Shown here: one piece after another, positions 6,766 through 24,210 of the stretch
How the letters are laid out: each line of letters opens with the position of its first letter
How positions within the stretch are numbered: the stretch's first letter is position 1
Sequence record: ON568341.1
Length of the DNA: 64,000 nucleotides
Reading direction: 5' to 3' (one strand)
Origin: Escherichia phage UE-S1
Position numbers and translations under genes: made by a program
The notes under the pieces: generated by a model
Told to the model about the DNA's origin: nothing
Database searches by the model: none
The model's input: the letters and a program-made list of their open reading frames with translations, nothing else

Positions 6766-7290
6766 ATGAAATACACACACCTAAGTATAGATGATACTAA
6801 TATCTGGTTAGATAACATAATCAAGACATTAGAATTAATTAAACTTACATTACAGAAATCAATTGATATTGAAACTAATATTAAACACGAAATATTAAAT
6901 TATTATCACAGAAACAAATATTGTACGTTTTTCTCTAAATTAATTTATGGATTATATGATAGTGAAGATATTTGTATCGGTTACAGTACTGGTATTTGCT
7001 TTACAATTAATGGTTTTATGAATGATTTAAATTTCCGTCTTTCAGAAGAACAGCAAAAGTTTCGTATATTTTGTGAGAATATTATCGATAAAGATGAAAT
7101 ATCATTTGTTATTGAATTAAATAGAACATGGTCTACATATGCAGATAAACCATTTGAAATTAATGAAACAGATGTGTTAAACTATATTCGAGTCATGAAA
7201 ATTCATGATTTGTGTAAAAATGCATTGTTAAGTATTGGAGCTTATAATGAAACATACGACTTGGTTGAAGATAGCAGAAGTAGTTGCTGA
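6766..7290 (+). CDS. hypothetical protein
   Basis: ORF in array; 3' end overlaps cd start. Confidence 0.45.
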   Translation: MKYTHLSIDDTNIWLDNIIKTLELIKLTLQKSIDIETNIKHEILNYYHRNKYCTFFSKLIYGLYDSEDICIGYSTGICFTINGFMNDLNFRLSEEQQKFRIFCENIIDKDEISFVIELNRTWSTYADKPFEINETDVLNYIRVMKIHDLCKNALLSIGAYNETYDLVEDSRSSC

Positions 7291-7726
7291 GGAAAGTAAA
7301 TGTATTTCACAAAAAGTTGGTTGTGTTATTGTTAAAAATAATCGAGTATTGAGTACTGGATATAACGGTACACCATCAAAGCAACCTAACTGTTGTGATG
7401 TTAATAAACATCTCGTAAACAATGGTCAATTTCAAAATTGGATTGATGAAGATGCAAAACACTTACATCACGAGTGGAGCAACATTCATGAGATTCATGC
7501 GGAAATGAATGCATTACTATATAGTTCACCACTAGAACGTCAGGGTGCAACACTTTACACCACACTTCAACCGTGCTATACTTGTTCTAAGTTAATCGCT
7601 GGTAGTGGTATTTCTCGTGTAATTTACGAAAAATCTTATCCTCGCACTCCACCAGAAGCTATTAAAGTACTGGAAGATGCTGGGATTATTGTTAATTGCA
7701 TTTATGATAAGGGTCTTGATAAATGA
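7247..7726 (+). CDS. cd: dCMP deaminase
   Basis: Zinc motifs HAEMNAL and PCYTCSKL; N-terminus aligns with T4 Cd (ESKC..VG.VI.KN.R..STGYNG). Confidence 0.8.
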   Translation: MKHTTWLKIAEVVAEESKCISQKVGCVIVKNNRVLSTGYNGTPSKQPNCCDVNKHLVNNGQFQNWIDEDAKHLHHEWSNIHEIHAEMNALLYSSPLERQGATLYTTLQPCYTCSKLIAGSGISRVIYEKSYPRTPPEAIKVLEDAGIIVNCIYDKGLDK

Positions 7727-8281: not shown

Positions 8282-10183
8282 TTACGCACTGATTGTTACA
8301 GTTGCAGTATCTGTTTTATTACCATCAGCAGTAGCCACTGTAATGACTACAGAACCTTCTTCTAGAGCAGTTACTAATCCCTCATCACTAATAGATACTT
8401 TAGTAGGTTCATCTGCACTATAAGTTACTGATTTGTTAGTTGCGTTAGATGGAAGAACTTCTGGAACTAGTTGAACTGTTTTAGTACCTGATAGTGAAAG
8501 TTCAGTAGTTTTAGGTGTTAAACTAACACTGGATACAGGAACTGGAATATTAACAGTAATAACACCTTGACCTGTTTTACCACTTCCATCAGCAGCAGTT
8601 GCGATAATGTTTGCAGTACCATTAGTTAGTGCAGTTACAATACCAGTACTAGCATCAACTTTTGCTACAGCAGGTTCACTAGAAGACCATGTTACAGATT
8701 TATTAGTTGCGTTAGATGGAAGAACTTCAGCAGCCATTGCTTGAGTTGCTTTAACAGCAGTCAATGTTTTAGTTGCTGGAGTAACATTAATAGATGCTAC
8801 AGGAACTGGAATATTAACAGTTACCACGCAAACTTTAGTAAATCCACCATCAGATGTGGTTGCTGTAATATTTGCAGTACCGTTTGCAACAGCAGTGATT
8901 AACCCAGTTGGACTTACCGTTGCGACACCCTCAGCAGAAGTAGTGTATGAAATATCTTTACGACGAGCGTTATCTGGAATAACAGATGCAGTTAATTGTT
9001 GAGTAGCACCTACCGAAGTTAGGGTTGCGGTCAACGGAGTCATATTAATACCAGTTACTGGGATCGTTACATCAATCACTGATTCAGCAGTTTTAGCACC
9101 ATCATCAGTGGTAACAGTAATAGTTGTAGTACCGTTATCAACCGAAGTTACTAGACCAGTATTACTAACTTTTGCTACGTCTGGATATGAAGAAACATAT
9201 GAAACTGCTTTATTGGATGCAGTTGCAGGAGCAACGGTTGTTTCTAATTGTTTAGTATCACCTAATGTTGAGAATGTATAAGTACTAGGAGTCATAGTGA
9301 CACCAGATACCGGTGTTTTCACAGTGATAGTAGTAGTATCAGTTTTAGCACCATCTTCGGTTGTTGCTGTAATCACCACTGTACCGTTAGCAACACCAGT
9401 TACTAGACCAGAAGTAGGGTTAACGGTTGCTACATCAGGTGTTGCTGAAGACCATGTAACGTTTTTATTAGTTGCATCATCAGGAGATACTGTAGCCGTT
9501 AATTGTTGAGTACCGCCAACGTTAATTGTTGCAGTTTTAGGAGAAACAATAACACCACTAACTGGAGTTGTTACGGTAAATGCACAAACATCGGTGAAAC
9601 CACCATCATGAGTAGTAACTGTTACATTTGCATTACCATTAGCACGGGCAATTGCTAAACCAGTTTCAGCATCAACTTCAACTATTGTTGGAGCAGAGGA
9701 ACTATAACTTACTGTTTTATCATTTGCATAATCTGGATCAATTGTAGCTGATAGCTGTTGTGTACTACCAACTTTAAGTGCTACAACTTTAGGTGAAATA
9801 ATAACACCATCAACTGGAGTAGTATAATCACGTTTAACCACACGACCATTGTTCAATTTAATAATACGACCCATATAAAGAGTAGTATATCCCTTACTAA
9901 TCCCATCATCTACATAAATCATGAATGAATTGTCTTGAACCATATTAATTGCGTCTACTGGTTTAACGGAATTTGGAATGTCGATACCACGGGTATCATA
10001 CCAACACATGGAAACTTTGTAATAGATATCACCATTATCATTTATGAGATCATAAACGTTACTGGAACGTTGACGGTTAATATATAAAGTTTCGGTTAAC
10101 ACCTTACCATCGATTTTAGCGACAGAAACTTTAATACCACCAATACCAAATGGCAATTTACCTTCACTAGATATTGCTTTCAT
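8282..10183 (-). CDS. Ig-like (Big_2-type) repeat protein, possible virion decoration protein
   Basis: Only convincing - strand gene; ~150-aa N-terminal domain then about six ~80-aa repeats (VTVTTHDGGFTDVCAFTVT, ITATTEDGAKTDTTTITV, ITVTTDDGAKTAESVIDV); AAGGAAAG RBS. Confidence 0.75.
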   Translation of the reverse strand: MKAISSEGKLPFGIGGIKVSVAKIDGKVLTETLYINRQRSSNVYDLINDNGDIYYKVSMCWYDTRGIDIPNSVKPVDAINMVQDNSFMIYVDDGISKGYTTLYMGRIIKLNNGRVVKRDYTTPVDGVIISPKVVALKVGSTQQLSATIDPDYANDKTVSYSSSAPTIVEVDAETGLAIARANGNANVTVTTHDGGFTDVCAFTVTTPVSGVIVSPKTATINVGGTQQLTATVSPDDATNKNVTWSSATPDVATVNPTSGLVTGVANGTVVITATTEDGAKTDTTTITVKTPVSGVTMTPSTYTFSTLGDTKQLETTVAPATASNKAVSYVSSYPDVAKVSNTGLVTSVDNGTTTITVTTDDGAKTAESVIDVTIPVTGINMTPLTATLTSVGATQQLTASVIPDNARRKDISYTTSAEGVATVSPTGLITAVANGTANITATTSDGGFTKVCVVTVNIPVPVASINVTPATKTLTAVKATQAMAAEVLPSNATNKSVTWSSSEPAVAKVDASTGIVTALTNGTANIIATAADGSGKTGQGVITVNIPVPVSSVSLTPKTTELSLSGTKTVQLVPEVLPSNATNKSVTYSADEPTKVSISDEGLVTALEEGSVVITVATADGNKTDTATVTISA

Positions 10184-10557: not shown

Positions 10558-11163
10558 ATGAAACGATTATTGAAAGAGATTATACAAACCGTTGTTATAA
10601 TTGCTGCATTAAACTTTCCTGCGGCGGCAGAAGTTTCAAAAAAAGCATCTGTTTTTCTATTAAATGATCATGTTGGGTCAATTGATGGTGAACTAAATGA
10701 TAAAACTGTACAAGATGTGGAGCAGTTGTGGAAAGAAAAAAAATTTAAAATTTTAACAATTACATCACCTGGTGGTGATTTTGATGCTGGTATTAAAATG
10801 GGAAATTTTGTTAGAGACAATGGTATAAATTTAATTGTTTCTAGATATTGCAATTCAGCATGTACTGTGGTATTCTTTAGTGTGCCCCCTGAAAAGCGAT
10901 ATATGACAAATCAATCAGTACTGGGATTACATAACATTTCGATCAAAAGTAACGTTAGAGATAGGGATAATACCTTTGTATCTGTTAGACAATTATCAAC
11001 ATTTACTGAAGAAATGGCAACAAAAGTAGGATTTTTATTTACACTATATTCAGCTAATGGAATTCCACCTAGCGTTCTATATAGAGTTAGTCGTGCACGT
11101 GGTGAAGATGTTGTTATCTTAACAAAAAAAGACCTAATTCATTACGGTTCGGTAAATCCATAA
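10558..11163 (+). CDS. secreted ClpP/S49-fold protein
   Basis: Signal-peptide-like N-terminus (VVIIAALNFPAAAEV); ITSPGGDFDAG and NSACTVV..GLHN pattern parallels the ClpP motifs at 5166. Confidence 0.45.
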   Translation: MKRLLKEIIQTVVIIAALNFPAAAEVSKKASVFLLNDHVGSIDGELNDKTVQDVEQLWKEKKFKILTITSPGGDFDAGIKMGNFVRDNGINLIVSRYCNSACTVVFFSVPPEKRYMTNQSVLGLHNISIKSNVRDRDNTFVSVRQLSTFTEEMATKVGFLFTLYSANGIPPSVLYRVSRARGEDVVILTKKDLIHYGSVNP

Positions 11164-11231
11164 AAATAATTATAATAACAGGATGATTATGTTGTTCTTC
11201 CTTTGTTATTAACTATATCGGAAATATAACT

Positions 11232-11492
11232 ATGACAAACATCCAGAATTTGACGTCTATTATTTTTTATGCTACAGTGGTGATGTATACTATTGTACTT
11301 ATTTTAACAGTTTTTATTTACAAAGATTACAAAAAAGGCTTTATTAATAGCTCAACAATGAAGTTCAATTCTAAATTTGAAGCAATTATATTTTATGTTT
11401 TGACAACATCATATTTGTTGTGTATAATGTTATTAGGGTCATTGATTTATATTTTATATACAACATTATTTGCAATTGGAGCTATTTTATGA
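11232..11492 (+). CDS. small membrane protein
   Basis: Strongly hydrophobic segments; stop overlaps next start (ATGA). Confidence 0.45.
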   Translation: MTNIQNLTSIIFYATVVMYTIVLILTVFIYKDYKKGFINSSTMKFNSKFEAIIFYVLTTSYLLCIMLLGSLIYILYTTLFAIGAIL

Positions 11493-12085
11493 CATGTATT
11501 ATTGCACACACTGATGGTGTAACTTCATTTATTGCAGGGGACAAGATGGGGAGTGATGGTTTTACGAAATCAATCCAAACAGAGCCTAAAGTGTTTGAGA
11601 AAGAATTTGTAAAGATTAGTGGTGATGACGGCTTGACTCGTACAAAAGATGTTATGACAATTGGATTCACTACATCATTTCGTATGGGTCAACTGCTAAC
11701 TTATAATTTAAATTTACCAGACCAAAATTCAAATGAGACGTTTCTACAGTATTTAGTACTGAAAGTTATTCCTATTATTCGTCAAATGTTTAAAGACGAA
11801 TGGGGTGCACGTGATACAACACAAGATGTTGGTGGTGGTCAATTTATTATTTTGCACAATCATAAGATTTATGAAATTCAGGAAGATTTTTCAGTTCTCC
11901 AGGCAAAATCAAGAGTTGCATCAGTTGGTAGTGGTACATATCATGCAATTGCAGCGATGCAAGCATACATTGATCTTGAGAAAGAAACTAACGTACAACT
12001 ACATGAACGTATCAAATCCATTTTCAAAATTGTCAGTGATAATGTGTCGAGTGTAAGCGAAGAGTTTGATGTATTAAAATATTAA
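11489..12085 (+). CDS. HslV-like N-terminal-nucleophile (Thr1) peptidase
   Basis: MTCIIAHTDGVTSFIAGDKMGSDG resembles HslV N-terminus ([23 protein letters not shown]) with Thr directly after Met; VASVGSGTYHAIAAMQA resembles HslV IAIGSGGPYAQAAARA; start set at ATG 11489. Confidence 0.6.
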   Translation: MTCIIAHTDGVTSFIAGDKMGSDGFTKSIQTEPKVFEKEFVKISGDDGLTRTKDVMTIGFTTSFRMGQLLTYNLNLPDQNSNETFLQYLVLKVIPIIRQMFKDEWGARDTTQDVGGGQFIILHNHKIYEIQEDFSVLQAKSRVASVGSGTYHAIAAMQAYIDLEKETNVQLHERIKSIFKIVSDNVSSVSEEFDVLKY

Positions 12086-12100
12086 AATTATAAGAGAGAA

Positions 12101-12295
12101 ATGATGGCATACACAATTTATGAATGGATTTTGAGTTTTATTATAGTATTTTTTATGGTTGTAATTTACAATAATGCTACATGCTTATATAGAGATTTAA
12201 AATCCAATGGTTATCATGCAAACAATAATTTAATGTATGCCTATCATATTGGAATCATTCTATTATTATCAATATATTTAATTGGTTTTATATAA
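12101..12295 (+). CDS. small membrane protein
   Basis: Two hydrophobic helices. Confidence 0.4.
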   Translation: MMAYTIYEWILSFIIVFFMVVIYNNATCLYRDLKSNGYHANNNLMYAYHIGIILLLSIYLIGFI

Positions 12296-17980: not shown

Positions 17981-18952
17981 ATGAAAACTAAAATTATTTC
18001 TGAACAAAAAATCGGCAATACTACAGTACTGAATATTGAAGTTCAAGATCTTAGTAATGTTCGTTCTCTTACTGTTTGTACTCAGAGAGATGATTTGACT
18101 GATTTTTATAACTCCGAATACATGTCAGAAGAACATTGGGATATGGGATGGTTAGACGGTAGTAGTTATATCAGTTCTCGTTATAGTTTTGGTTCTCATG
18201 AAAATATTGAACAAGTAAAAAATGAGTATATTAAACTCAGTGATACTATTGAAATGAAAGAAGAAGATTGTGTAGAACTTTTCATTTTTGAATTCGATGC
18301 AGGAAATGGTAATTCATTACTAGTAAGTAATATTGAAGAACATTTAATGTATCATGATATTGAAGATGTAGATTTTAAAAGTATTAAAAATGTTGTTCAT
18401 ATGGTTGGTGGTAGTATTACTGATGATTCAGATATCGGTCATAATATTTCACTGTGCTTAATTTCTCATCCAAAAACTCGTGGTTTTAAAGTTCCACAAG
18501 ATGAAACTTACGTGTTTGAAACTGCTGATGAAGGAATTTATCCTTGGAATGATTATGTAGAATACTATGGTCATTTCTGTTCTGATATAAAAGAACTGAA
18601 AAAAGGCGAACGATATTTTGATATGTTCCGTGCAGCACAGCGTTTAGTACTGAATAATACTGAACTATTTCCTGATCGCGGTGAAGAAAATATGATTGAT
18701 ATTATCTTCAAGAACTATGATTATGTGCAGAACATTCCTGATAATGTACATTTGGAATATGTTCACGGTTCTTCAAACAAATTCTATAATATTGAATTGA
18801 ATGTTTCAGTGTGTGAAGTAATCATTGAGTACGGTGCTATTGGTAAAACCAGTACTACCGATGGTGAAGAATTCGAAACTATTGAAGAAGCACGTAAGTT
18901 CTTCGAGAAGAAAGTAATTTCCAAAATTAAAAGTGGTTATATCCCAAAATGA
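17981..18952 (+). CDS. hypothetical protein with C-terminal WGR-like domain
   Basis: C-terminus KFYNIEL..EYGAIGKTSTTDGEEFETIEEARKFFEKKVISKIKSGY resembles WGR domain. Confidence 0.45.
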   Translation: MKTKIISEQKIGNTTVLNIEVQDLSNVRSLTVCTQRDDLTDFYNSEYMSEEHWDMGWLDGSSYISSRYSFGSHENIEQVKNEYIKLSDTIEMKEEDCVELFIFEFDAGNGNSLLVSNIEEHLMYHDIEDVDFKSIKNVVHMVGGSITDDSDIGHNISLCLISHPKTRGFKVPQDETYVFETADEGIYPWNDYVEYYGHFCSDIKELKKGERYFDMFRAAQRLVLNNTELFPDRGEENMIDIIFKNYDYVQNIPDNVHLEYVHGSSNKFYNIELNVSVCEVIIEYGAIGKTSTTDGEEFETIEEARKFFEKKVISKIKSGYIPK

Positions 18953-19719: not shown

Positions 19720-19752
19720 CATCAGTAATGTTCTTTTAAATTGGAGATTATT

Positions 19753-20367
19753 ATGACTACATCGGAAAAGTACTGGTGGATTTTGGGTCATCCTAAATTC
19801 ATAAACAAAGATATGGTTCCAGCTAGGATTGAGATAGAACCCCATGATGTGTGTCCAATGACAAATCGAATTGAAGATTTCAAAGCATTAAATACAAAGA
19901 CTCAATTTTGGGTAGAATTTCTTTCACCAATGTATATTGAGCAAGACGATGAATGGGTACAAGCACATGATTACCAATTAGATTGTGGTGGTGATACGTA
20001 TGAAGAGGCCATTGATGAATTATACAAAAATGTGCTAAAAACATATGGTGATTATACCCAACAAGAAGCTGACGATAAATTTAATAAGACCCATGCATTC
20101 AAATCTACTCAATCAATTTTTAATCCCACTAAAACTGTTTGGGAGGAACGACATAGTTGGAGTTCATGTGTAATCGATGAAGAAACCAAAGAAACAATTA
20201 TCGATGACATAAAAAATGTAAAAAATACAATAGAAGCCTTGCGTGAATTCATAAAGTCTTGTACAATAGAACAACAGAAAGAGGCAAAGATACATTTGGA
20301 GAGTGAAGAATGTAAACTTTGGGTTCTAGAGAAATCGATTGAAAAGGGTATAGACTTAGACATATGA
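19753..20367 (+). CDS. hypothetical protein
   Basis: Track ORF; start set at MTTSEK Met after GGAG. Confidence 0.45.
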   Translation: MTTSEKYWWILGHPKFINKDMVPARIEIEPHDVCPMTNRIEDFKALNTKTQFWVEFLSPMYIEQDDEWVQAHDYQLDCGGDTYEEAIDELYKNVLKTYGDYTQQEADDKFNKTHAFKSTQSIFNPTKTVWEERHSWSSCVIDEETKETIIDDIKNVKNTIEALREFIKSCTIEQQKEAKIHLESEECKLWVLEKSIEKGIDLDI

Positions 20368-20732
20368 ATAGTAAATTGGCGAAACTAATCGAAGATTTAC
20401 GCCAGATGCCGCCTATTGAACAAGTAGGAAATTACAAACGGTATCGTGTTATTGCTCGTGCACTTGATAAAAAAGGTCGAGTACTGGCAACTCGTACCAA
20501 TTCTTATACACAGACTCACCCAGTACAGAAGGGTTTCGCCATTCGTGCTGGGCGACCGCAAGGTGAGTTTCTTCATGCTGAAATTTCATGCTTACTGGCT
20601 GCTCGTGCTGATGTTCATACTTTACTGATTGCACGGATAAGTAAAGATGGAATTCCTGTTCCAGCCAAGCCTTGTGAGATTTGTACGTTGGCAATTATGG
20701 AATATGGGGTCAAAGAAATTATTCACACATGA
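20364..20732 (+). CDS. small cytidine-deaminase-fold zinc protein
   Basis: FLHAEISCLLAA and KPCEICTLA = H-A-E / P-C-x-x-C zinc-deaminase signature; second CDA-fold gene in window. Confidence 0.5.
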   Translation: MNSKLAKLIEDLRQMPPIEQVGNYKRYRVIARALDKKGRVLATRTNSYTQTHPVQKGFAIRAGRPQGEFLHAEISCLLAARADVHTLLIARISKDGIPVPAKPCEICTLAIMEYGVKEIIHT

Positions 20733-20956
20733 AAAAAATTGAACGCTACAAAAACCATACAGTTGTGGCTGAAGATGATATATTTTATTATTATATTTTC
20801 AGACCCACACACTGTTTACAAATAACGACATTTGATAATGATAATAATTTCAAAGATGTCAACTTCCATATAACAGATTTAGCTAAATATTCCAGTACTG
20901 AACACTTTAGTAATCTAGTATTTGTGTACTGTATACCAAACCCAAATAATAAGTAG
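20729..20956 (+). CDS. hypothetical protein
   Basis: ATGA overlap with upstream stop. Confidence 0.4.
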   Translation: MKKIERYKNHTVVAEDDIFYYYIFRPTHCLQITTFDNDNNFKDVNFHITDLAKYSSTEHFSNLVFVYCIPNPNNK

Positions 20957-22141: not shown

Positions 22142-22243
22142 ACTTGTCATAGGGTGTAGTGCAATTGCTGCATATATGATTTTTTCACCTCCAACCAATG
22201 TATTACTGCTAATTTGGGCGGTTGTTATATTAGCAGTACTTTA

Positions 22244-22267
22244 AAAGCACCTTAGTGGTGCTTTTTA
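22244..22267 (+). terminator. intrinsic terminator
   Basis: AAGCACC / GGTGCTT stem then T5. Confidence 0.7.
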
Positions 22268-22404
22268 TATTTGTGCAAATAAAAACCAATGTGACTTTTC
22301 CTTGATATATATCAAGAGAAATAGCCTGTTCTGACGCTATAATATTGTCTGGTGATATTAAATATCTTCACCCCCAGATGATTTCAAAATACAAGGAATG
22401 TACA

Positions 22405-24210
22405 ATGCAGCTAGATAAATTATATAATGACGTAACGAATTTCCTAAATCAGAGTAATACAGATCTCACAAATGAAAATGCGAACAAAGATGCGAAGTGC
22501 GTCAATACACACAGGGATTTACTTGCAGGTATCCTATCTAAACATTATTCACAAGATGTTATCCCAAATGAACTAATGCAGTGGCATAATGATGGTTATG
22601 GACATATTCATGATTTAGACTACTATATCAGTCCATTAACCAACTGTTGCTTAGTCAACTACCCAGATATGCTAAAAAATGGATTTACTATTGGCTGTGC
22701 TAAAATTGAAGAACCAAAAAGTTTTAGTGTTGCATGTACAGTACTAACACAGATTGTACAAGCTGTAGCTAGTTCACAATACGGAGGTCAATCGTTGGCT
22801 CACATTGATGTCGGGTTGGAACCTTACGTTAAAAAGTCATGGGATAAACTATTAGAAAAACAAAAGAAATATAATCTAAGTGATGAATACATTGAAGAAG
22901 AATTACGAAAAGAAGTATACGATGGATGTCAAACATTACTTTATCAAACTAATTCAATGATTAGTACTAATGGTCAAGCTGCATTTATTTCTCTTAGTTT
23001 AGGTTTGAATACTTCCAAATTTGGTAAATTAATCACCGAACAGTACTTAAAAGTTCATGAGAATGGTTTAGGTAAAGATAAGATTACTCCAGTGTTTCCT
23101 AAAGTGATTTTCTTTTTACAAGATGGTATAAACATGAATACCAATGATTGTAATTATGACCTTAAACAGTTAGCTATGCGTTGTGCATCAAAACGAATCT
23201 ACCCAGACTTTGTTTCAGTTCCATTAAATCACAAAGTGACGGGAAGTAGTGGCACTGCTGTAACACCGATGGGCTGTCGTTCATTCTTAGGAAAATGGGA
23301 AGATTCAAATGGAAATGAACAATATAACGGTCGCTTCAATTTAGGTGTAGTTTCTATCAATTTACCACTAATTGCTCTTGAAAGTGCTACAGATGGAGAG
23401 TTTTTTGATAAGATAGATGAGCATATGAATATTGCATATCGTGCTCAGATGAACCGCGTAGAGCGTTTAAAAGGTACAAAAGCGAAACAGAATCCAATTT
23501 TGTTTATGGAAGGTGCATTAGCACGTTTAGATGCAGAAGAGACTATTGACAAGCTATTTTACAATGGTTATGCTAGTATTAGTATTGGTTATGTTGGACT
23601 TGTTGAATGTTCGGAAATCCTCACTGGTTCTATCAGTAAGGAGTTTTGTATGTCAGTACTGAATTATATGAAAGTAAAATGCGATGAGTTTAAAAAAGAA
23701 AGTAATATTGCTTTTAGTTTATATGGAACTCCAGCAGAGTCACTTTGTTATAAATTTGCACGTTGCATTGAAGCAAAGTATCCGTCTGTTCTAAAACGTA
23801 ATTATATTACAAATTCATTCCATCAACCAGTATGGGTTGAAAGTTCTGCTTTTGAAAAGTGGGATTATGAGGAAAACTTTGCTTATCTAAGCAATGGTGG
23901 TAATATTAGCTATGTCGAAACACCAAACTTAACAAACAACATTCAAGCACTTGAAACATTAATCAATTATGCCTATAAAAAAATTCCATATTTTGGAATA
24001 AACCAGCCTATAGATCATTGTCATAAATGTAATTTTGAAGGTGAATTCAGCGTCGATAAAAACGGTTTCCACTGTCCAGTTTGTAATAATAGAGATGAAA
24101 AATCTATGTCAGTTATTCGAAGAGTTAGCGGATATCTTAGTGCACCAAATAGTCGCCCATTCAATAAAGGAAAGCAAGATGAAGTGATTCAGAGAATTCG
24201 CCATTTATAA
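22405..24210 (+). CDS. nrdD: anaerobic ribonucleoside-triphosphate reductase
   Basis: Close resemblance to T4 NrdD (TDLTNENANKD, PLTNCCLV, GCRSFLG); C-terminal Zn ribbon CHKCNFEGEF..CPVCNN and glycyl-radical motif RRVSGYL; start at ATG 22405 aligning with T4 N-terminus. Confidence 0.9.
   Translation: MQLDKLYNDVTNFLNQSNTDLTNENANKDAKCVNTHRDLLAGILSKHYSQDVIPNELMQWHNDGYGHIHDLDYYISPLTNCCLVNYPDMLKNGFTIGCAKIEEPKSFSVACTVLTQIVQAVASSQYGGQSLAHIDVGLEPYVKKSWDKLLEKQKKYNLSDEYIEEELRKEVYDGCQTLLYQTNSMISTNGQAAFISLSLGLNTSKFGKLITEQYLKVHENGLGKDKITPVFPKVIFFLQDGINMNTNDCNYDLKQLAMRCASKRIYPDFVSVPLNHKVTGSSGTAVTPMGCRSFLGKWEDSNGNEQYNGRFNLGVVSINLPLIALESATDGEFFDKIDEHMNIAYRAQMNRVERLKGTKAKQNPILFMEGALARLDAEETIDKLFYNGYASISIGYVGLVECSEILTGSISKEFCMSVLNYMKVKCDEFKKESNIAFSLYGTPAESLCYKFARCIEAKYPSVLKRNYITNSFHQPVWVESSAFEKWDYEENFAYLSNGGNISYVETPNLTNNIQALETLINYAYKKIPYFGINQPIDHCHKCNFEGEFSVDKNGFHCPVCNNRDEKSMSVIRRVSGYLSAPNSRPFNKGKQDEVIQRIRHL

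What the first reader, a model, noticed from the sequence alone, without database searches (positions are those of the whole stretch)
20364..20732. Second, minimal cytidine-deaminase-fold protein distinct from dCMP deaminase
Besides the canonical Cd (7247-7726), a 122-aa ORF carries the H-A-E .. P-C-x-x-C zinc-deaminase signature (FLHAEISCLLAA; KPCEICTLA). Small CDA-fold proteins can deaminate free nucleotides, tRNA or DNA; a second deaminase in a T4-like phage suggests extra nucleotide-pool or nucleic-acid editing activity.
Basis: partly seen in the sequence, partly recalled or inferred. Interest (0 to 1): 0.45.

Follow-up and report, generated by a model that had tools for sequence, protein, structure and literature searches.

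The report
Truncated basic second deaminase, jumbo phage
The 122-residue ORF is a real, strongly conserved zinc deaminase of a large, untested, phage-only family of very small basic enzymes; databases label it "dCMP deaminase" or "TadA" although it lacks the defining features of both, and it most likely converts cytosine nucleotides to uracil nucleotides for thymidylate synthesis.

Summary

The window is not T4-like. It is an Asteriusvirus-type (121Q/G17) jumbo coliphage. A canonical dCMP deaminase is also present at 7247-7726.

The ORF belongs to a distinct family of 96-166 aa proteins seen mainly on phage or phage-sized contigs, with more than 1,100 clusters. Median pI is 9.6. The family signature is N-S-Y-x-K-T-H-P-x-Q ... 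HAE ... R ... AKPCxxC. Most members, including this one, end right after strand 4. Longer members add an antiparallel strand 5, not the helix 4 of dCMP deaminase and TadA. All five dCMP-deaminase clade markers are absent.

In phiKZ-type and cyanophage S-T4 genomes it is the only such deaminase and sits alongside ThyA or ThyX. In three other lineages it lies next to a canonical Cd.

The best reading (about 0.45) is an unregulated cytosine-nucleotide deaminase feeding dTMP synthesis. A polynucleotide deaminase (about 0.25) is not excluded. Two deaminases in this phage group were already noted in print, so novelty is modest.

The parts
20364..20732 (+). Gene for the 122-aa minimal zinc deaminase (short form of the family; ends directly after strand 4). 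Its ATGA start and stop overlap the ORFs on both sides.
20499..20528 (+). N46 followed by the family-specific loop and helix motif N-S-Y-x-(K/Q)-T-H52-P53-x-Q55. [quoted passage not shown] I infer a role as substrate-binding cap and phosphate-binding residues.
   Evidence: Column counts in 150 relatives: N46 148, K50 129 (Q in the window), H52 140, P53 137, Q55 132. Helix 53-61 in the model.
20574..20582 (+). H71-A72-E73: zinc ligand His and catalytic Glu, at the start of helix 2.
   Evidence: H 149/150, A 146/150, E 150/150
20634..20636 (+). R91 at the end of strand 3, a nearly invariant basic residue specific to this family.
   Evidence: 147/150
20667..20684 (+). K102-P103-C104-E-I-C107: the two Cys zinc ligands at the start of helix 3, preceded by a conserved Lys.
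   Evidence: P 149/150, C104 and C107 150/150, K/R 108/150
7247..7726 (+). Context: the canonical dCMP deaminase (Cd) of the same phage. It carries all clade markers that the small ORF lacks.
   Evidence: PF00383 76.8 bits. The sequence shows C before strand 1, GYNGTP, a Cys/His-rich insert, HAEMNAL, TLYTT and Y after strand 4.
22345..24210 (+). Context: anaerobic ribonucleotide reductase NrdD, 1.6 kb downstream on the same strand and possibly in the same transcription unit. NrdG follows in relatives.
   Evidence: terminator-like site at 22243-22265

Best explanation
The ORF encodes an active, stand-alone, zinc-dependent hydrolytic cytosine deaminase that acts on free cytosine (deoxy)nucleotides (dCMP and/or dCDP/dCTP). 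It makes uracil nucleotides for the phage thymidylate synthase and so raises the T:C ratio of the precursor pool for a 33% G+C genome.

Mechanism. Shown: H71, C104 and C107 are placed to hold a zinc ion and E73 to shuttle protons, on a four-stranded deaminase core. Inferred: N46, A72 and P103 hold the pyrimidine and sugar as in T4 Cd. The family-specific basic cluster (K50/Q50, H52, R91, K102) on the strand-2/helix-2 insert and the strand-3/helix-3 hairpin binds the phosphate or phosphates.

The protein lacks the second zinc site, helix 4, strand 5 and the C-terminal allosteric and interface region of classical Cd. I therefore infer that it is not regulated by dCTP/dTTP and may need to oligomerise to close its active site. 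In phages that also have a classical Cd, the two enzymes would differ in regulation or in the phosphorylation state of their substrate.
For: - Catalytic residues are invariant in 150 distant relatives, and dN/dS is 0.02-0.09.
- The fold is confirmed.
- By sequence profile, the nearest solved proteins are dCMP deaminases: cyanophage S-TIM5 4p9c at E 1.2e-10, then S. mutans, human and T4. The PHROG hit is dCMP deaminase.
- In the phiKZ-type genome PaZh_1 it is the only ORF with an HxE...PCxxC signature, and ThyA lies 14 kb away.
- In cyanophage S-T4 it is again the only one, and ThyX, NrdAB and MazG are present.
- A canonical Cd lies directly downstream and overlapping in two unrelated lineages (L018-21, L038/39). 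In Limnohabitans phage DC31 it lies two genes away, with ThyX 4.5 kb further on.
- NrdAB lies within 10 kb in 4 of 27 lineage groups. NrdD is 1.6 kb downstream in the window.
- All carrier genomes and loci are A+T-rich, 32-46% G+C.
- Asteriusviruses encode thymidylate synthase (PMC11895373, PMC7247149).
- Residues that T4 Cd uses for the dC moiety (Asn40, Ala105, Glu106, Pro131; PMC12697855) have conserved counterparts here (N46, A72, E73, P103).
- Phosphate specificity is known to be plastic in phage enzymes of this superfamily (dCMP versus dCTP; PMC12697855).
Against: - No biochemical data exist for any member.
- None of the five dCMP-deaminase clade markers of Iyer et al. 2011 is present, and no NCBIfam model reaches its cutoff.
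- The family is uniformly very basic: median pI 9.6, net charge about +9 on about 120 residues, 97% above pI 8. Classical Cds in the same genomes have pI 5-8.7. That is more charge than one nucleotide requires and is typical of nucleic-acid binders.
- C-terminal truncation after strand 4 is otherwise described in toxin deaminases that act on polynucleotides (PMC3239186).
- Where a classical Cd is present, a second dCMP deaminase looks redundant.
- Thymidylate synthase and RNR are common in large phages anyway, so the co-occurrence is weak evidence.
Confidence: 0.45

Rival explanations
1. It is a polynucleotide cytosine deaminase acting on ssDNA, RNA or tRNA (host or phage). The open, truncated active site and the basic surface would bind a nucleic-acid backbone and flip a base into the zinc site.
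For: - pI of about 9.6 and net charge of about +9 are conserved across 302 members.
- Strand 5, helix 4 and all C-terminal elements that close the pocket in nucleotide deaminases are missing.
- Features resemble YwqJ- and MafB19-type toxin deaminases: a conserved His in the strand-2/helix-2 insert, an insert before CxxC, truncation after strand 4, and G at the start of strand 4 (PMC3239186).
- Phage enzymes annotated as dCMP deaminases do deaminate ssDNA in vitro (bioRxiv 10.1101/2024.12.05.627091). PF14437-type proteins showed ssDNA activity in a base-editor reporter assay (10.1101/2023.05.21.541555).
Against: - A DNA C-to-U mutator would damage the unmodified genomes of the phages that carry it.
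- There is no conserved partner, inhibitor or immunity gene in 27 lineage groups.
- There is no toxin, secretion or defence context, and PADLOC finds nothing.
- Where neighbours are informative they are nucleotide-metabolism genes.
- The Pfam MafB19 model also hits the classical Cd strongly and differs from the Iyer MafB19 clade (10.1101/2023.06.29.547047), so those hits carry little weight.
Confidence: 0.25
2. It deaminates another small molecule: cytidine or deoxycytidine (CDA-like salvage), a modified cytosine nucleotide, or a cytosine- or adenine-containing signalling nucleotide of a host defence system.
For: - Longer family members have the antiparallel strand-4/strand-5 hairpin of the CDA/blasticidin-S division.
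- 60 of 150 members weakly match the tetrameric CDA model.
- The gene often sits among early and auxiliary genes, for example next to Acb1 and an ADP-ribosyltransferase in L009.
Against: - The CDA markers PCxxCR and the N-x-E ribose motif are absent.
- There is no PADLOC hit or anti-defence context in the window.
- The conserved basic cluster argues for a phosphorylated ligand.
Confidence: 0.12
3. It is a TadA-like tRNA A34 adenosine deaminase serving phage-encoded tRNAs, as JGI labels many members.
Against: - The TadA markers are absent: E-P-C-x-M-C, and the C-terminal helices with conserved E and F that bind the anticodon loop (PMC3239186).
- No member reaches the TadA cutoff.
- None of the 5 distinct tRNAs of PaZh_1 or the 7 of S-T4 has A34.
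- The window contains no tRNA.
Confidence: 0.05
4. It is a non-autonomous subunit or regulator that forms hetero-oligomers with the classical Cd, in the manner of ADAT3 with ADAT2.
Against: - The phiKZ-type and S-T4 genomes have the small protein but no Cd.
- The catalytic Glu is invariant, unlike in ADAT3.
- In the window the two genes are 13 kb apart.
Confidence: 0.05

Closest known systems
Phage and cellular dCMP deaminases (T4 Cd 1VQ2, cyanophage S-TIM5 Cd 4P9C, S. mutans ComEB-type 2HVV)
   Different: It lacks the Cys/His zinc-binding bihelical insert, NxxP, the N-A after HxE, TxxxT in strand 3, the Tyr after strand 4, helix 4, strand 5 and the C-terminal allosteric and interface part. 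It has its own motif, S-Y-x-K-T-H-P-x-Q, plus R91. pI is 9.7, against 6.2 for the closely related JP4 Cd orthologue.
Phage dCTP and bifunctional deaminases of the dCMP-deaminase family (PBS1, DSS3_VP1, PhiR1-37 Dcd; PBCV-1 bi-DCD 7FH4)
   Different: Those enzymes keep the helix-4 architecture and are 140-190 aa. There is no evidence here for dU-DNA.
TadA / ADAT2-ADAT3 tRNA adenosine deaminases
   Different: There is no E-P-C-x-M-C and there are no C-terminal tRNA-binding helices. No A34 tRNA is present in the phage genomes examined.
Tetrameric cytidine deaminase / blasticidin-S deaminase (C-terminal hairpin division)
   Different: HAE rather than CAE, no PCxxCR, and no N-x-E ribose motif. The window protein has no strand 5 at all.
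MafB19 / YwqJ / Bd3614-type truncated deaminases of bacterial toxin systems (Iyer et al. 2011)
   Same: HxE within a hairpin-type or truncated fold. N at the end of strand 2, V/I at the end of strand 3, G at the start of strand 4, a conserved His in the strand-2/helix-2 insert, an insert before CxxC, and loss of strand 5.
   Different: There is no toxin, immunity or secretion context and no Pfam hit to YwqJ. PF14437 scores only 14.5 bits (cutoff 27) for the window protein, and that model also hits classical Cd. The family looks phage-borne: named members are phage proteins and contigs are phage-sized.
5mC-selective phage deaminases (mSCD-B5 and relatives)
   Same: They are phage PF00383/PF14437 proteins annotated as dCMP deaminases that turned out to act on modified dC nucleotides and on ssDNA.
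   Different: Those enzymes are linked in cis to dCMP-methylating or -hydroxymethylating thymidylate-synthase homologues. No such linkage is seen here, and membership of this small family in that set was not established.

Membership tests
CDA-fold zinc deaminase superfamily (Pfam PF00383) | [HC]xE in helix 2 and PCxxC in helix 3 as zinc ligands plus catalytic Glu | tested here: met
   H71-A72-E73 and P103-C104-x-x-C107; invariant in relatives
CDA-fold zinc deaminase superfamily (Pfam PF00383) | Score above the curated Pfam cutoff | tested here: met
   29.1 bits against a cutoff of 25; 150/150 relatives hit PF00383
CDA-fold zinc deaminase superfamily (Pfam PF00383) | Three-layer alpha/beta deaminase fold | tested here: met
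CDA-fold zinc deaminase superfamily (Pfam PF00383) | Bound zinc and deaminase activity | not testable with these tools
   needs metal analysis and enzyme assays
dCMP deaminase / ComEB clade (Iyer et al. 2011, Table 1) | [quoted passage not shown] | tested here: not met
   The insert 47-70 has one helix and no Cys, and there is no Cys before residue 76. The window's Cd has them.
dCMP deaminase / ComEB clade (Iyer et al. 2011, Table 1) | NxxP at the end of strand 2 | tested here: not met
   N46-S-Y-T; the family consensus is N-S-Y-x-K-T-H-P
dCMP deaminase / ComEB clade (Iyer et al. 2011, Table 1) | N-A two residues after HxE | tested here: not met
   HAE-I-S-C in the window. In the family, position 75 is A/S/D and only the Ala at position 76 is common.
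dCMP deaminase / ComEB clade (Iyer et al. 2011, Table 1) | TxxxT in strand 3 | tested here: not met
   H-T-L-L-I-A-R
dCMP deaminase / ComEB clade (Iyer et al. 2011, Table 1) | [quoted passage not shown] | tested here: not met
   The protein ends at T122 after strand 4. Long-form relatives have a strand-4/5 hairpin and no helix 4.
dCMP deaminase / ComEB clade (Iyer et al. 2011, Table 1) | NCBIfam ComEB (TIGR02571) cutoff | tested here: not met
   There is no hit for the window protein. 43/150 relatives hit only weakly (best E 1.9e-7).
TadA / Tad2 tRNA adenosine deaminase | E-P-C-x-M-C motif; two extra C-terminal helices with conserved E and F | tested here: not met
   The motif is K-P-C-E-I-C and there is no sequence after strand 4
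TadA / Tad2 tRNA adenosine deaminase | NCBIfam TadA cutoff | tested here: not met
   15/150 relatives give weak hits only
TadA / Tad2 tRNA adenosine deaminase | An A34 tRNA substrate encoded by the phage | tested here: not met
   No A34 tRNA in PaZh_1 or S-T4 and no tRNA in the window. The full Asteriusvirus tRNA set was not examined.
CDD/CDA tetrameric cytidine deaminase | C[H]AE, PCxxCR, and Glu at the end of strand 5 | tested here: not met
   HAE is present, but position 108 is T (family Q/E/M, not R), and the window protein has no strand 5. TIGR01354 scores 13.7 bits against a cutoff of 113.65.
MafB19 clade (Iyer et al. 2011) | N at the end of strand 2, HxE, V at the end of strand 3, +xxCxxC, G at the start of strand 4 | tested here: inconclusive
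   N46, HxE, V/I89 and G115 fit. The basic residue is at -2 (K-P-C), not at -3. The Iyer profile was not available.
MafB19 clade (Iyer et al. 2011) | Pfam PF14437 cutoff, and a polymorphic-toxin context | tested here: not met
   14.5 bits against a cutoff of 27. Neighbours are phage genes with no toxin or immunity modules.

The most novel reading that the evidence does not exclude
The family, including this 122-aa protein, may be a natural 100-125-residue polynucleotide deaminase acting on ssDNA or RNA. It would work with a four-stranded, C-terminally open CDA core and a highly basic surface. Phages would use it on host or phage nucleic acid, for example tRNA or mRNA recoding or marking host DNA for destruction. 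That would make it, to my knowledge, among the smallest nucleic-acid deaminases known and a candidate ultra-compact base-editor module.
Probability: 0.2. Interest if true: 0.75.

Novelty: new variant of a known kind. Interest (0 to 1): 0.38.

Why it matters
More than a thousand sequence clusters of this minimal deaminase are spread through jumbo phages, phiKZ-like phages, marine T4-like cyanophages and many uncultured phages. All are labelled by homology transfer as "dCMP deaminase", "TadA" or "hypothetical", and I found no report of any member being tested.

If it is an unregulated dC-nucleotide deaminase, it explains how A+T-rich phages without a classical Cd (phiKZ, many cyanophages) feed their thymidylate synthases. 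It would also explain why some phages keep two deaminases.

If instead it acts on nucleic acids, it would reveal a new layer of phage-host interaction and offer a very small editing domain. Either way the current annotations over-state what is known.

Tried and rejected
- **Conserved partner gene.** ORFs within +/-10 kb of 60 loci were clustered into 27 lineage groups. No neighbour family recurs in more than 4 groups apart from classical Cd and RNR. A split enzyme completed by the translationally coupled flanking ORFs (19741-20367 and 20729-20956) is therefore unlikely. Those ORFs have no Pfam hits.
- **Defence or anti-defence role.** PADLOC finds nothing for the deaminase.
- **TadA for phage tRNAs.** No A34 tRNA was found in two complete carrier genomes.
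- **Cd-dependent subunit.** Rejected as a general model because phiKZ-type and S-T4 genomes lack Cd.
- **Pfam MafB19 hits as evidence of toxin-clade membership.** Rejected because the same model scores the classical Cd at 56.6 bits. In addition, 10.1101/2023.06.29.547047 reports that the Pfam profile differs from the Iyer clade.
- **Tool limits.** The search for related loci with the 150-sequence alignment failed because there was no conserved stretch. The afdb50 fold library was unavailable.
- **Literature.** Searches for a characterised member found none. One of these was uninformative.
- **Genome-level co-occurrence by tblastn summaries.** This was only indicative.

Full report
**Observation**

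Its start overlaps the stop of the upstream ORF (ATGA), and its stop overlaps the start of the downstream ORF. It sits in a long same-strand run of genes that ends at a terminator-like hairpin at 22243-22265. The two motifs read as reported: FLHAEISCLLAA and KPCEICTLA.

They are not a chance match.
- Pfam PF00383 is passed (29.1 bits, cutoff 25), and PHROG 174 gives 6.7e-13.
- An AlphaFold2 model built on 23 homologues has mean pLDDT 90.8.
- Against orthologues in 121Q, JP4 and RaK2, dN/dS is 0.02, 0.085 and 0.073, so this is a gene under strong purifying selection.

**Whose genome**

The region is 92-93% identical in DNA to Escherichia phages G17, Sharanji, 121Q and PBECO4. These are Asteriusvirus, with genomes of about 350 kb. 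The window is therefore a RaK2/121Q-type jumbo phage, not a T4-type phage.

In relatives both genes are already annotated "dCMP deaminase" (121Q gp490; JP4 CDS0552 and CDS0575). The genome paper of the related phage CBB states that it "has two CMP/dCMP deaminases" (PMC5259590). The existence of a second deaminase gene in this group is thus on record, but only as an annotation.

**The family**

- A single-sequence tblastn finds relatives in 195 of 50,697 phage records. They include RaK2-like jumbo phages, phiKZ-like Pseudomonas phages, T4-like cyanophages, Aeromonas phages and a Limnohabitans phage.
- A profile search of 1.84 billion representative proteins gives 4,548 hits at E<=1e-3 and 1,109 at E<=1e-10. 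All of the best 150 are 96-166 residues long.
- A second word-indexed search shows that almost all are metagenomic, on contigs of phage size, and unnamed or auto-named "deoxycytidylate deaminase" or "tRNA(Arg) A34 adenosine deaminase TadA".
- Over 150 relatives of 27-50% identity, E73, C104 and C107 are invariant. H71 (149), P103 (149), N46 (148), R91 (147), A72 (146), H52 (140) and P53 (137) are nearly so.
- The family signature is D-[KR]-[KR]-G ... N-S-Y-x-K-T-H-P-x-Q ... L-H-A-E ... R ... G ... A-K-P-C-x-I-C ... G ... [YH]-[TS].
- The family is uniformly basic: median pI 9.6, 97% above pI 8, median net charge +9. Classical Cds from the same genomes have pI 5.0-8.7.

**Architecture**

The model has helix 1, strands 1-2, an inserted helix (53-61) carrying the T-H-P-x-Q motif, helix 2 (HAE), strand 3, a short hairpin insert (93-102), helix 3 (PCxxC) and strand 4. 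Then the protein ends.

Of 150 members, 109 stop 20-26 residues after the Pro of PCxxC, as the window protein does. The other 41 carry about 10-20 more residues. A model of one long form (P0243, 90-sequence alignment, pLDDT 94.6) puts those residues into a strand 5 joined to strand 4 by a two-residue turn. In the classification of Iyer et al. [quoted passage not shown] It is not that of the "helix-4" division, to which dCMP deaminase and TadA belong.

**Membership tests**

The five synapomorphies that Iyer et al. list for the dCMP deaminase/ComE clade are:
- a zinc-binding bihelical insert, with a Cys before strand 1;
- NxxP;
- N-A after HxE;
- TxxxT in strand 3;
- Tyr after strand 4.

All five are visible in the window's Cd (sequence). 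All five are absent from the small ORF.

The TadA markers (E-P-C-x-M-C and C-terminal helices) and the CDA markers (PCxxCR, Glu at the end of strand 5) are also absent. No member reaches the curated cutoff of any NCBIfam model. Weak hits are spread over anti-phage dCTP deaminase, tetrameric CDA, ComEB, TadA and RibD.

Several traits recall the truncated toxin deaminases MafB19 and YwqJ. However, the Pfam MafB19 model hits the classical Cd even better and is reported to differ from the Iyer clade (10.1101/2023.06.29.547047). There is also no toxin context. I therefore file the protein in the superfamily only, as a distinct clade.

**Context and co-occurrence**

The neighbours in the window have no Pfam hits and there are no PADLOC hits. 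NrdD starts 1.6 kb downstream.

I compared 60 loci (the window, INPHARED records, IMG/VR and metagenome contigs). They fall into 27 lineage groups, about seven of which are marginal members. No neighbour family recurs in more than four groups. There is one informative exception.
- A classical Cd lies immediately downstream, with overlapping stop and start, in a marine T4-like lineage (L018-21, with NrdA/NrdB upstream) and in L038/39.
- A classical Cd lies two genes away in Limnohabitans phage DC31, with ThyX 4.5 kb further on.
- NrdAB lies within 10 kb in four groups.

I then scanned two complete genomes from other lineages.
- In the phiKZ-type phage PaZh_1 the small protein is the only ORF with an HxE...PCxxC signature. 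ThyA is present. The five distinct tRNAs (Leu-taa, Pro-tgg, Met, Asp, Thr-tgt) include none with A34.
- In cyanophage S-T4 the gene is an unannotated ORF and is again the only such deaminase. ThyX, NrdAB and MazG are present, and the seven tRNAs include none with A34.

Asteriusviruses also encode thymidylate synthase (PMC11895373, PMC7247149). All carriers are A+T-rich: window 33.3%, PaZh_1 36.9%, S-T4 39.0%, other loci 32-46% G+C.

**Interpretation**

Shown: this is a conserved, catalytically intact, very small and very basic zinc deaminase of a family seen mainly in phages, distinct from Cd, TadA and CDA.

Inferred (confidence about 0.45): it deaminates free cytosine deoxynucleotides to supply dUMP or dUTP for thymidylate synthesis, without the allosteric control of classical Cd. 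It would serve as the only such enzyme in phiKZ-like phages and some cyanophages, and as a second enzyme with a different substrate or different regulation where Cd is present. Published work shows that phosphate specificity in phage members of this superfamily is plastic (dCTP deaminases of PBS1, DSS3_VP1 and PhiR1-37; PMC12697855). It also shows that phage "dCMP deaminases" can prefer modified cytosines and even act on ssDNA (10.1101/2024.12.05.627091).

The main rival (about 0.25) is a polynucleotide deaminase. It is favoured by the conserved high positive charge and the open, truncated fold. It is disfavoured by the self-mutagenic cost and by the nucleotide-metabolism neighbourhood. TadA-like and Cd-subunit models are largely excluded by the genome scans.

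**Novelty and score**

The gene and its generic label are already in the databases and in one paper. What I could not find described is the following:
- that it represents a large, separate, truncated and basic clade;
- that this clade fails the defining features of the families it is named after;
- that it stands alone in some thymidylate-synthase-encoding phages.

No mechanism has been demonstrated. I rate it a new variant of a known kind, with interest 0.38. The interest would be much higher if nucleic-acid activity were found.

Noticed in passing
window 17981-18952 (+): A 323-aa ORF whose C-terminal 67 residues match the WGR domain (PF05406, E 1e-10). This domain is otherwise known from PARPs and some bacterial and phage nucleic-acid-associated proteins. 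The rest of the protein has no Pfam hit.
   Followed up: no
window 8282-10183 (-): A 633-aa ORF built of about seven tandem repeats of roughly 85 residues (recurrent '...ATVxPxxATNKxVxxSS...VAxVxxxGLVTAxxxGTAxITxTTxDG...'). It looks like a run of Ig-like (Big_2-type) domains, probably a virion decoration or fibre protein. It lies on the opposite strand to its neighbours.
   Followed up: no
L066 11234-11659 (-) = Synechococcus phage S-T4 MH412654.1: The S-T4 member of this deaminase family (HMM E 7e-41) lies in a gap between annotated CDSs (10663-11277 and 11637-12200). It is not annotated as a gene in the GenBank record.
   Followed up: partly
L010 5655-6357 and L011 110-812 (JGI metagenome contigs): In one uncultured-phage lineage the small deaminase gene overlaps an upstream gene that encodes a YAcAr (PF10686) domain protein. 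It sits between a DnaB-type helicase and a type I topoisomerase plus NUDIX hydrolase.
   Followed up: no
L009 2414-5713 (Logan contig SRR8164857_1762): In a T4-like contig the small deaminase lies just downstream of an Acb1-family (anti-CBASS) gene and a 665-aa ADP-ribosyltransferase (PF03496). This is a region of host-takeover and anti-defence genes.
   Followed up: no
L002 4884-5345 / L061 20580-21092 (phiKZ-type phages KTN4, PaZh_1): The phiKZ-type members have H-S-E instead of H-A-E and 'Y-P-C-P-T-C' instead of 'K-P-C-x-I-C'. They also carry a longer N-terminal extension in the stop-to-stop ORF, so the true start is uncertain.
   Followed up: no
L061 34110-35624 (-) (PaZh_1): The ThyA-like ORF of the phiKZ-type phage is about 500 codons stop-to-stop and matches E. 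coli ThyA in four separate stretches. This suggests large insertions or an N-terminal extension relative to the 264-aa bacterial enzyme.
   Followed up: no
window 7235 vs 7247 (+): The canonical Cd ORF can start at TTG 7235 or ATG 7247. It overlaps the end of the upstream 174-aa ORF (6766-7290) by about 45-55 nt, which is an unusually long overlap.
   Followed up: no
Sharanji paper PMC11895373 vs window: [quoted passage not shown] By gene order this is probably the classical Cd orthologue, not a TadA, which is another example of unstable naming of these deaminases.
   Followed up: partly
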